Of a DNA stretch of 64,000 bases, positions 13,450-13,917 are shown piece by piece; position 1 is the stretch's first letter; every line of letters starts with the position of its first letter. Source of the stretch: a virus (Duplodnaviria > Heunggongvirae > Uroviricota > Caudoviricetes); IMG/VR virus record IMGVR_UViG_2721755662_000004, one strand, 5' to 3'. The notes beneath the pieces were generated by a model. The model was given only the letters and a program-made list of their open reading frames with translations. It ran no database searches and was not told the origin of the DNA. A program made the translations under genes and the position numbers.

Positions 13450-13671
13450 CATATCGGGTAAAAACGGTTTGCGGTAAAGCGAGAGTTAAGTAGAATTGCT
13501 GCGGGTGCTTGAGGCTGTCTGCCTCGGGCATGCCACCGTAAGGCAGACAGAGAAAAACCCCAGTTAACATTACGCGTCCTGCAAGACGCCTAACATTAAT
13601 CTGAGGCCAATTTCATGCTAGACACATGTAGGTTAGCCTCTTACGCGCCGAAAGGCAAGGAGAAGCAGGCT
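13450..13671 (+). promoter_or_regulatory. hok mRNA leader with in-frame upstream ORF (mok-like); expected target of antisense Sok-type RNA
   Basis: Structured GC-rich leader with upstream ATG at 13615 in frame with hok; Sok RNA itself not delimited. Confidence 0.4.
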
Positions 13672-13827
13672 ATGAAGCAGCAAAAGGCGATGTTAGTCGC
13701 CCTGATCGTCATCTGTATTACCGTCGTAGTGACGGCACTGGTAACGAGGAAAGACCTATGCGAGGTACGAATCCGAACCGGTCAGACGGAGGTTGCTGTC
13801 TTCACAGCTTACGAACCTGAGGAGTAA
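13672..13827 (+). CDS. hokD: Hok/Gef family type I toxin (HokD-like)
   Basis: MKQQKAMLVALIVICITVVVTALVTRKDLCEVRIRTGQTEVAVFTAYEPEE, 51 aa. Confidence 0.85.
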   Translation: MKQQKAMLVALIVICITVVVTALVTRKDLCEVRIRTGQTEVAVFTAYEPEE

Positions 13828-13896
13828 GAGACCCGGCGAGGGAGAAATCCCTCGCCACCTCTGATGTGTCAGGCATCCTCAACGCACCCGCACTTA

Positions 13897-13917
13897 ACCC
13901 GCTTCGGCGGGTTTTTT
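13897..13917 (+). terminator. Intrinsic terminator after hok
   Basis: CCCGC-TTCG-GCGGG hairpin plus T6. Confidence 0.6.

What the first reader, a model, noticed from the sequence alone, without database searches (positions are those of the whole stretch)
13450..13917. HokD-type type I toxin locus in the nin region
A canonical Hok/Gef toxin (51 aa) with a long structured leader, an in-frame upstream start (mok-like) and a downstream terminator. The antisense Sok-type RNA is expected within the leader but cannot be delimited from sequence alone.
Basis: partly seen in the sequence, partly recalled or inferred. Interest (0 to 1): 0.4.

Follow-up and report, generated by a model that had tools for sequence, protein, structure and literature searches.

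The report
Intact prophage hok/mok/sok toxin–antitoxin locus
This is a complete, ordinary copy of the well-known hok/sok toxin–antisense-RNA module sitting in a lambda-like E. coli prophage; it is annotated as hokD in thousands of genomes and is about 91% identical to an experimentally studied copy (hokW-sokW of phage Sp5).

Summary
Window 13468-13917 holds a full hok/mok/sok type I toxin-antitoxin locus. It has a 51-aa Hok peptide (13672-13827, Pfam HOK_GEF E=5.6e-24). It has an in-frame 70-codon mok ORF from 13615, with the same 57-nt offset as K-12 mokC/hokC. The 169-nt leader matches Rfam RF01794 at 110 bits (cut-off 59). The 5' end (tac) pairs with the 3' end (fbi), and an intrinsic terminator follows.

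Its promoter is TTGCCT-17 nt-TAACCT (13658-13630, minus strand). Its start is G13623 and its end is about 13553, giving 71 nt: a 5' tail, a long hairpin and a U-run. The same -10 hexamer was mutated to abolish antitoxin activity in Sp5 hokW-sokW, which is 90.7% identical.

In 32 homologues from 8 genera the mRNA fold is 96.9% paired, with 19 compensatory pairs. The Sok hairpin is 93.6% canonical on the antisense strand against 72.8% on the sense strand.

The element is 100% identical to E. coli FORC_069, and 3851 of 5426 complete E. coli genomes hold a full-length relative. It is already known and of low interest. A second hok/sok-like locus lies at 43468-43830.

The parts
13468..13496 (+). 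Probable hok promoter: weak -35 (TTTGCG/TTGCGG at 13468-13474) and -10 TAGAAT (13491-13496), 6 nt before the transcript start
   Evidence: Read from the sequence. A TAnAnT hexamer sits at the same distance from the conserved CGGG start in homologues from 8 genera. The simple promoter scan did not call it. Inferred, not shown.
13503..13917 (+). Full-length hok mRNA, about 415 nt, translationally inert closed form
   Evidence: The Rfam model starts at 13503 and the terminator ends at 13917. MFE -179.3 kcal/mol, z=-8.9. Consensus fold of 32 homologues: 69 pairs, 96.9% paired, 19 pairs with compensatory change, 0/500 shuffles as good.
13503..13514 (+). tac element (GGGUGCUUGAGG). It pairs with fbi in the full-length mRNA and with ucb after 3' processing.
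   Evidence: The tac/fbi pair at alignment columns 5/405 covaries: UA in 22, CG in 9, UG in 1.
13557..13563 (+). ucb / anti-SD of mok (ACCCCAG). It pairs with the mok SD region in the closed form.
   Evidence: Helix 3 of the consensus (columns 58-68 with 97-108) has 4 covarying pairs. Element definitions come from PMC9841398. A13557 is G in all 31 other homologues.
13603..13606 (+). mok Shine-Dalgarno GAGG. It is paired in the full-length fold and unpaired in the 3'-truncated fold.
13615..13827 (+). mok-like ORF, 70 codons, in frame with hok (19 extra N-terminal codons: MLDTCRLASYAPKGKEKQA)
   Evidence: The 57-nt offset and shared stop are the same as annotated K-12 mokC/hokC and the Sp5 'MokW-like' CDS.
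13637..13642 (+). CCUCUU box that pairs with the hok SD. It overlaps the GCCUC (dcb-like) partner of the mok SD in the open form.
   Evidence: Helix 4 (columns 142-146 with 163-167) is 99.4% paired. The Rfam consensus structure pairs GAGGC with GCCUC.
13657..13662 (+). hok Shine-Dalgarno AAGGAG, sequestered in a hairpin; the basis for coupling of hok translation to mok translation
   Evidence: Coupling itself is inferred from R1 hok/sok (PMC9841398).
13672..13827 (+). hok CDS, 51-aa membrane toxin
   Evidence: Pfam HOK_GEF E=5.6e-24. RefSeq names it hokD, WP_197687434.1. It matches K-12 HokD at 48/51 and Sp5 HokW at 44/51 residues.
13796..13807 (+). Distal coding segment CUGUCUUCACAG that pairs with the hok start region 13670-13680
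   Evidence: Helix 6 (columns 175-185 with 301-312) has 10 pairs, 3 of them covarying.
13835..13856 (+). 3' stem-loop GGCGAGGGA-GAAA-UCCCUCGCC, the presumed 3' end protector of the processed mRNA
   Evidence: Helix 13 has 8 pairs, 4 covarying. Its role is inferred from R1 (PMC9841398).
13877..13889 (+). fbi element CCUCAACGCACCC, complementary to tac
13896..13917 (+). Intrinsic terminator of hok mRNA (7-bp GC-rich hairpin plus T6)
13630..13658 (-). Sok promoter: -35 TTGCCT (13658-13653), 17-nt spacer, -10 TAACCT (13635-13630)
   Evidence: The pattern occurs twice in 64 kb, both times antisense inside a hok leader, with 0.00 expected by chance. The hexamers are conserved in register in 32 homologues. 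Sp5 'pro-less' primers YO-421/422 replace exactly this -10 (TAGGTTA to CCGGCTC on the sense strand), and that mutant lost antitoxin activity (PMC8621323).
13553..13623 (-). Sok antisense RNA, about 71 nt: a 15-nt single-stranded 5' tail covering the mok AUG, a long hairpin and a U-run
   Evidence: K-12 SokC (annotated ncRNA) maps to 13623->13547. Fold -31.4 kcal/mol, z=-5.0. The hairpin is 93.6% canonical on the antisense strand with 120 G.U cells, against 72.8% and 3 G.U cells on the sense strand. sokW is reported as 71 nt complementary. The 3' end is inferred to within +/-6 nt.

Best explanation
The region is an intact hok/mok/sok type I toxin-antitoxin module carried in the nin region of a lambdoid E. 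coli prophage.

Mechanism (architecture shown here; dynamics inferred from plasmid R1 hok/sok and Sp5 hokW-sokW):

1. A weak promoter makes a stable hok mRNA of about 415 nt (13503-13917).
2. The 3' fbi box of this mRNA (13877-13889) pairs with the 5' tac box (13503-13514).
3. In this closed form the mok SD (13603-13606) is held by the upstream ucb box. The hok SD (13657-13662) is held by CCUCUU. Nothing is translated and Sok cannot bind.
4. Slow 3' trimming removes fbi and the terminator. tac then pairs with ucb, which exposes the mok SD/AUG and its hairpin loop.
5. Ribosomes translating mok (13615 onward, in frame) open the hok SD, so the 51-aa Hok membrane toxin is made.
6. A constitutive antisense promoter (13658-13630, minus strand) makes the short-lived Sok RNA of about 71 nt (13623->13553).
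7. The Sok 5' tail covers the mok start. The resulting duplex blocks mok, and therefore hok, translation and is cut by RNase III.
8. When Sok synthesis stops, the stable hok mRNA pool is translated and the cell is killed or lysed.

My weights for the biological role in a prophage:
- Help with host lysis and phage release after induction, as shown for the 91%-identical Sp5 locus: about 0.45.
- Stabilisation of the prophage by post-segregational killing: about 0.25.
- Exclusion of superinfecting phages: about 0.2.
- No current function: about 0.1.
For: - Hok family peptide.
- Leader matches RF01794 at 110 bits over the full model.
- Predicted closed fold with tac/fbi pairing, z=-8.9. After deleting the last 40 nt, the predicted fold forms tac/ucb and leaves GAGG unpaired.
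- Consensus structure over 32 homologues from Escherichia, Shigella, Kluyvera, Citrobacter, Pseudocitrobacter, Photorhabdus, Pantoea and Erwinia: 96.9% of cells paired against 39-45% for slid controls. There are 19 pairs with compensatory change, including tac/fbi UA<->CG.
- The mok ORF has the same 57-nt in-frame geometry as annotated mokC and MokW.
- Sok promoter, hairpin and U-run are conserved, and wobble pairs occur almost only on the antisense strand.
- K-12 SokC maps onto the region.
- The locus is 90.7% identical over 442 nt to Sp5 hokW-sokW. For that locus, toxicity, Sok antitoxin activity, dependence on this -10 element, northern detection of both RNAs and a twofold effect on phage release were reported (PMC8621323).
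- RefSeq annotation as hokD.
Against: - Nothing here shows expression, toxicity or processing of this particular copy.
- The chromosomal hok loci hokA, hokB and hokC were reported unable to mediate post-segregational killing (bioRxiv 10.1101/2025.08.07.668861).
- This allele carries A at 13557, where all 31 other homologues have G. That gives an A.C mismatch in both the ucb/mok-SD and tac/ucb stems.
- A strain-specific synonymous change at 13758 breaks one conserved pair.
- Both promoters are too weak for the generic sigma-70 scan.
- The NCBIfam Hok HMMs score below their cut-offs (48 bits against 73).
Confidence: 0.93

Rival explanations
1. The locus looks intact but is a silent relic. On this view it is transcribed poorly or locked in the closed fold, so it neither kills nor protects, as reported for several chromosomal hok loci.
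For: [quoted passage not shown]
- K-12 hokD is a truncated copy.
- The unique A13557 sits at an otherwise invariant ucb position, and there is a broken pair at 13758.
Against: - Every element is present and in register.
- There are no frameshifts or stops.
- The near-identical copy in O104:H4 prophages differs at 1 of 501 nt.
- The 91%-identical Sp5 copy is functional.
- A13557 becomes a G.U pair on the Sok strand, so the Sok hairpin is kept.
Confidence: 0.06
2. It is a hok gene without a working antitoxin RNA, like K-12 hokD. On this view it is expressed only by read-through from upstream prophage genes, and the apparent Sok promoter is just the complement of conserved mRNA structure.
For: - The Sok hexamers match consensus at only 7 of 12 positions and were missed by the promoter scan.
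- The -35 and -10 overlap the hok SD and the anti-SD box. Those would be conserved for mRNA reasons anyway.
Against: - The hairpin is 93.6% canonical on the antisense strand against 72.8% on the sense strand, with 120 G.U cells against 3. mRNA structure alone cannot explain this.
- A U-run follows the hairpin only on the antisense strand.
- The identical -10 was shown to be needed for antitoxin activity in Sp5, and sokW was seen on northern blots.
- K-12 SokC is an annotated ncRNA at the homologous place.
Confidence: 0.01

Closest known systems
hokW-sokW of Sakai prophage 5 (Stx2 phage VT2-Sakai), Takada et al. 2021, PMC8621323
   Same: - 90.7% nucleotide identity over 442 nt, from the tac element to just past the fbi element.
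- Hok matches at 44/51 residues. The mok ORF has the same 70 in-frame codons (MLNTCRLASYVPKGKEKQA... against MLDTCRLASYAPKGKEKQA...).
- The Sok -35 and -10 hexamers are identical, and the long Sok hairpin carries the same 18-nt extension.
- Both lie in a lambdoid prophage, and both are preceded by a DUF551 gene.
   Different: - Position in the phage: here the locus is in the nin region, downstream of the replication genes in the rightward early operon. In VT2-Sakai it lies near the right end of the prophage map (57.5 kb), not in the nin region.
- The Sok 5' tail and mok-start loop differ at several bases (GAAAUU.. against GGAUUG..).
- The C-terminus of Hok differs (TAYEPEE against VDYESEK).
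hokD (relF, b1562) of the K-12 Qin cryptic prophage
   Same: - The peptide matches at 48/51 residues.
- DNA is 96.5% identical from 14-17 nt upstream of the ATG through fbi and the terminator.
- It carries the same RefSeq name.
   Different: K-12 hokD has no tac, ucb, mok start, Sok target or Sok promoter, because relE abuts it 71 nt upstream. The window copy is the full-length form.
hokC/mokC/sokC (gef) of E. coli K-12
   Same: - Homologous along the whole leader.
- mok is in frame with hok at a 57-nt offset.
- The annotated SokC ncRNA overlaps the mok start by 9 nt and maps onto 13623->13547.
   Different: - SokC is 59 nt; the window Sok hairpin has an 18-nt insertion.
- Its -35 is TTGACC rather than TTGCCT.
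- The 3' end of the K-12 locus diverges next to IS186.
- It is a chromosomal backbone locus, not a prophage one.
hok/mok/sok of plasmid R1 (parB)
   Same: The same set of elements and the same closed-to-open switch: tac/fbi, ucb, dcb, mok coupling, and antisense Sok over the mok start (element definitions from PMC9841398; tested here).
   Different: - HokW, which matches the window peptide at 44/51 residues, is only 44% identical to R1 Hok.
- From my own recollection of the R1 sequence, mok there is out of frame with hok. This was not checked here.
- R1 is a plasmid and this is a prophage.

Membership tests
hok/sok (Hok/Gef) type I toxin-antitoxin family | Small (about 50 aa) hydrophobic Hok/Gef peptide | tested here: met
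   PF01848 83.9 bits against cut-off 22, E=5.6e-24.
hok/sok (Hok/Gef) type I toxin-antitoxin family | Conserved structured hok mRNA leader | tested here: met
   RF01794 110.3 bits against gathering score 59, model positions 1-157, + strand.
hok/sok (Hok/Gef) type I toxin-antitoxin family | Long-range 5'/3' (tac/fbi) pairing that closes the full-length mRNA | tested here: met
   Predicted in the MFE structure. The helix is 100% paired in 32 homologues, with UA<->CG covariation in 9.
hok/sok (Hok/Gef) type I toxin-antitoxin family | Refolding to an open form (tac/ucb stem, mok SD freed) once the 3' end is removed | tested here: met
   The fold of 13503-13877 pairs GGGU with ACCC and leaves GAGG 13603-13606 unpaired. 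This is thermodynamic prediction only.
hok/sok (Hok/Gef) type I toxin-antitoxin family | Overlapping mok reading frame with its own SD, and a sequestered hok SD | tested here: met
   ORF 13615-13827 with GAGG 8 nt upstream. The hok SD pairs with CCUCUU in 99.4% of cells. The geometry is the same as mokC.
hok/sok (Hok/Gef) type I toxin-antitoxin family | Cis-encoded antisense Sok RNA over the mok start, with its own promoter and terminator | tested here: met
   The identical -10 was validated in Sp5. Transcription of this copy was not observed.
hok/sok (Hok/Gef) type I toxin-antitoxin family | Hok is toxic and Sok neutralises it; hok mRNA is stable and Sok is unstable | not testable with these tools
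   Shown only for the 90.7%-identical Sp5 locus (PMC8621323).
hokD (K-12 b1562) orthologue | Near-identical peptide | tested here: met
   48/51 residues. RefSeq product name is HokD.
hokD (K-12 b1562) orthologue | Same locus structure and context: downstream of relBE in Qin, with no leader or sok | tested here: not met
   There is no relBE here. The window copy has the full leader that K-12 lacks.
hokW-sokW (Sp5) type | Full-length locus with the extended Sok hairpin and the TTGCCT/TAACCT promoter, in a lambdoid prophage | tested here: met
   The position within the prophage differs.

The most novel reading that the evidence does not exclude
The module may be wired into prophage induction by transcriptional interference. 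hok has the same orientation as the N-antiterminated rightward early transcript (cro-cII-O-P-...-nin). After induction, read-through RNA polymerase would collide head-on with the convergent, weak Sok promoter and shut Sok off. The pre-made stable hok mRNA would then be released for translation.

This would explain the unexplained RecA-dependent disappearance of sokW RNA in Sp5 while hokW mRNA persisted. It would make hok/sok an induction-timed auxiliary lysis device rather than an addiction module.
Probability: 0.2. Interest if true: 0.45.

Novelty: already known. Interest (0 to 1): 0.1.

Why it matters
It matters little as a discovery. The locus is annotated in RefSeq. A full-length relative is present in about 71% of complete E. 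coli genomes. It is a close relative of an experimentally characterised prophage system.

The value of this check is practical:

- It gives exact coordinates for every regulatory element and for the Sok RNA.
- It shows that the Rfam family named 'sok' actually matches the hok-sense leader, so the hit's strand and extent must not be read as the antitoxin gene.
- It shows that the 'hokD' label hides the difference between this intact module and the truncated K-12 prototype.
- This prophage carries two hok/sok loci plus two type II toxin-antitoxin pairs. That makes it a reasonable system for asking what such modules do during induction.

Tried and rejected
- The generic sigma-70 scan found neither the hok nor the Sok promoter. 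Both match consensus too weakly (Sok 7/12). They were placed by homology and conservation instead.
- I first looked for hokW in the nin region of VT2-Sakai (8-24 kb) and found nothing. It lies at 57.5 kb near the right end.
- NCBIfam Hok HMMs score below their cut-offs (48 bits against 73). The RefSeq name 'HokD' therefore cannot come from those models, and I did not use them as membership evidence.
- K-12 hokD was considered as the reference locus and rejected, because it lacks the whole leader.
- L008, L024, L041 and the K-12/L015 hokC copies were left out of the structural alignment. Their 5' or 3' ends are degenerate, replaced by relE, or diverge from the family consensus (the K-12/L015 hokC 3' end, next to IS186).
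- Reading the Rfam 'sok' hit as the antitoxin gene on the + strand was rejected. The model ends at the hok AUG and is in mRNA sense.
- Chance ORF or chance hairpin was rejected on the E-values and z-scores above.

Full report
**What is in the sequence.** Window 13450-13917 contains, on the + strand, a 51-codon ORF at 13672-13827. It encodes MKQQKAMLVALIVICITVVVTALVTRKDLCEVRIRTGQTEVAVFTAYEPEE.
- It matches Pfam HOK_GEF at 83.9 bits, E=5.6e-24.
- An ATG at 13615, preceded by GAGG (13603-13606), opens a 70-codon frame that runs in frame into hok.
- Rfam RF01794 matches 13503-13677 on the + strand over its full length, at 110.3 bits against a gathering score of 59, E=3.5e-24.
- A GC-rich hairpin plus T6 at 13896-13917 is the only strong terminator-like site nearby.

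**Where the window comes from.** The 501 bases around the locus are 100% identical to five Korean E. coli chromosomes (FORC_069 and relatives) and 99.8% identical to O104:H4 outbreak strains. In all of them the gene is annotated 'hokD: type I toxin-antitoxin system toxin HokD'. Of 5426 complete E. coli genomes, 4713 have a match and 3851 have one covering at least 80% of the query, with a median of 2 and up to 10 places per genome.

The RefSeq annotation of the surrounding 28 kb shows a lambdoid prophage. Its gene order is:
- int, exo/bet/gam, recE, kil
- a cI-like repressor, cro, cII
- replication genes
- DUF1627, DUF977, DUF551 and a 34-aa ORF
- hokD
- a Doc-family toxin pair and an HTH/RelE pair
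- an ORF6N antirepressor, ninB, ninE, ant, a KilAC protein, rusA, ninH and Q
- lysis and terminase genes

'In the nin region' is therefore correct.

**The mRNA architecture.** Folded as one RNA, 13500-13917 gives -179.3 kcal/mol, z=-8.9, with no shuffle as stable. The 5' GGGUGCUUGAGG pairs with 13877-13889 CCUCAACGCACCC. This is the tac/fbi end-pairing that defines inert full-length hok mRNA (definitions in PMC9841398).

When the last 40 nt (fbi plus terminator) are removed, the predicted fold changes. The 5' GGGU now pairs with ACCC of the ucb box, and the mok SD GAGG becomes single-stranded. That is the closed-to-open switch described for plasmid R1.

**Comparative test of the fold.** I fetched 43 loci encoding relatives of the peptide from one genome per species. 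I then aligned 32 full-length mRNAs from Escherichia, Shigella, Kluyvera, Citrobacter, Pseudocitrobacter, Photorhabdus, Pantoea and Erwinia. RNAalifold predicts 69 pairs.
- On these pairs 96.9% of cells are canonical, against 39-45% when the 3' partners are slid by 1-3 columns.
- 19 pairs show changes on both sides.
- No shuffle out of 500 reaches the observed covariation score.

The individual helices behave as follows:
- tac/fbi helix: 100% paired. It switches from U-A (22 sequences) to C-G (9, mostly Photorhabdus).
- ucb/mok-SD helix: four covarying pairs.
- hok SD AAGGAG: paired to CCUCUU in 99.4% of cells.
- hok start region 13670-13680: pairs with 13796-13807 inside the coding region, with three covarying pairs.
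- 3' stem-loop 13835-13856: four covarying pairs.

The leader is thus foldable into a hok-type structure, and the fold is evolutionarily maintained.

**mok.** In K-12 the annotated mokC (16751-16960) and hokC (16751-16903) share a stop codon and differ by 57 nt. The Sp5 record annotates a 70-aa 'MokW-like' CDS. Its product is MLNTCRLASYVPKGKEKQA + HokW, against MLDTCRLASYAPKGKEKQA + Hok here. The in-frame upstream start is therefore the normal mok arrangement of this branch of the family, not an oddity.

**Delimiting Sok.** Four lines of evidence allow it.
1. The K-12 ncRNA SokC (16952-17010) maps through the alignment onto 13623->13547 on the minus strand.
2. On that strand TTGCCT (13658-13653), 17 nt and TAACCT (13635-13630) precede G13623 by 7 nt. 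The pattern occurs exactly twice in 64 kb, with 0.00 expected. Both occurrences are antisense inside a hok leader.
3. In Sp5, whose locus is 90.7% identical over 442 nt, sokW is said to have 71 nt of complementarity to the hokW 5' UTR. It was detected by northern blot. It lost antitoxin activity in a 'pro-less' mutant whose mutagenic primers replace sense-strand TAGGTTA by CCGGCTC. That is exactly this -10, which is identical in the window. Counting 71 nt from 13623 gives 13553, which falls in the U-run.
4. The predicted RNA has a single-stranded tail of about 15 nt containing the complement of the mok AUG, a long hairpin and UUUUUCU (-31.4 kcal/mol, z=-5.0).

In an antisense-strand alignment of the 32 homologues, the -35 (TTGCCT or TTGACC), the -10 (mostly TAAYCT) and the hairpin foot GGCCUC/GGGGC plus U-run are conserved in register.

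The hairpin also shows a strand asymmetry. On the antisense strand 93.6% of 563 cells are canonical, including 120 G.U cells. Read on the sense strand, only 72.8% are canonical, with 3 G.U cells. Selection therefore acts on the antisense RNA. This is sequence-only evidence that Sok exists.

The most variable stretch of the whole locus is the Sok 5' tail together with the mok-start loop. This fits a specificity determinant in genomes that hold several hok/sok copies. That reading is inference.

**Relation to named loci.** The peptide matches K-12 HokD at 48/51 residues, Sp5 HokW at 44/51 and HokC at 44/50.

At the DNA level, K-12 hokD is 96.5% identical, but only from 14-17 nt upstream of the ATG to the terminator. 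Upstream of that is relE. K-12 has no mokD or sokD annotation.

The window locus is thus the full-length form of what K-12 keeps as a truncated remnant. Its closest characterised complete relative is hokW-sokW. That locus sits elsewhere in its phage, at 57.5 kb near the right end of VT2-Sakai, again downstream of a DUF551 gene and not in the nin region.

**Function.** The architecture fixes the regulatory logic described under the best explanation. The biological role is not fixed by sequence.

For Sp5, mitomycin C induction led to RecA-dependent loss of sokW, HokW production about 1 h before endolysin, and a twofold loss of released phage in the deletion mutant. hok genes are reported to be about four-fold enriched in prophages. 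I therefore favour a role in lysis and release on induction. Prophage stabilisation and exclusion of other phages are the alternatives.

**Caveats.** No expression data exist for this copy.
- The allele has A at 13557, where the other 31 homologues have G. This weakens one pair in both alternative stems of the mRNA, but it is a G.U pair in Sok. The change is shared with O104:H4.
- The only difference from O104:H4 is a synonymous A at 13758, which breaks one conserved pair.
- Neither change disrupts an element.

**Verdict.** The finding is correct and the element is already known. It is annotated, extremely common and experimentally understood through close relatives. Interest is low.

The only forward-looking idea my evidence leaves open concerns read-through from the early rightward operon. 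That operon has the same orientation as hok and converges on the Sok promoter. Read-through could be what silences Sok on induction.

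Noticed in passing
window 43468-43830 (+); CDS 43617-43757; antisense promoter 43611-43583 (-): A second, divergent hok/sok-like locus lies in the same prophage, just downstream of the lom-like gene.
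- The peptide is 46 aa (MSQKSLITVTICMTVIFTIWMLHGSLCEFRLNLWGAEFAAFLQCKQ); Pfam HOK_GEF E=4e-8; RefSeq calls it 'Hok/Gef family protein'.
- The Rfam 'sok' model scores only 35 bits, below its cut-off of 59.
- It has 5'/3' end pairing (fold z=-6.4).
- It has the same antisense TTGCCT-17-TAACCT promoter and a Sok-like hairpin plus U-run.
- I saw no mok-like ORF: stop codons occur in all three frames between about 43570 and 43590.
- It is 92% identical to an unannotated stretch of VT2-Sakai and is present in 1550 of 5426 E. coli genomes.
   Followed up: partly
window 13503-13677 (+): The Rfam family RF01794 is titled 'sok antitoxin', but its model matches the hok-mRNA sense strand and ends at the hok AUG. 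It depicts the open (tac/ucb) leader fold. The real Sok lies on the opposite strand and covers only 13553-13623. The hit's coordinates and strand must not be taken as the antitoxin gene.
   Followed up: yes
window 13557 and 13758: A13557 replaces a G that is invariant in the 31 other homologues. The position is in the ucb box and is equivalent to R1 G71, which was never recovered as a loss-of-function mutant in PMC9841398. The change is shared with the O104:H4 prophage. A13758 (synonymous Leu) is the only difference from O104:H4 and breaks one conserved pair.
   Followed up: partly
window 13810-13813 (hok codon Tyr47, UACG): The Tyr codon lies in an invariant TTACGAA motif, conserved in all 32 homologues including third codon positions. 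This is the motif reported for TadA A-to-I editing that recodes Tyr to Cys in hok mRNAs (bioRxiv 10.1101/2025.08.07.668861). Editing of this copy was not tested.
   Followed up: no
window 13992-15514: Two type II toxin-antitoxin pairs sit directly downstream of hok/sok.
- A small ORF plus a Fic/Doc-family toxin (14226-14720, +).
- An HTH (HigA/MqsA-like) antitoxin (14771-15088, -) with a RelE/ParE-family toxin beyond it.
The nin region therefore holds three consecutive TA modules.
   Followed up: partly
window 13203-13286 and 13322-13426 (+): Two tiny hydrophobic ORFs (27 and 34 aa) lie between the DUF551 gene and the hok promoter. The start of the first is also present upstream of hokW in Sp5 (85% identity over 40 nt; cloning primer YO-432 matches). 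Neither ORF reaches a Pfam family's cut-off.
   Followed up: partly
window 15542-15740 and 17127-17325 (+): Two tandem copies of a c4-a1b1 / isrK / C4 antisense-RNA module lie in the nin region. Each immediately precedes an antirepressor gene (ORF6N 15794-16459; Ant 17378-18061). This resembles a P1-type immunity-I arrangement, duplicated within one prophage.
   Followed up: no
window 20467-20672 (+); 59696-59785 and 60579-60664 (-): Other Rfam hits above threshold:
- STnc100 (165 bits), between Q and the SASA esterase gene.
- Two sRNA-Xcc1 copies near the 3' end of the window.
   Followed up: no
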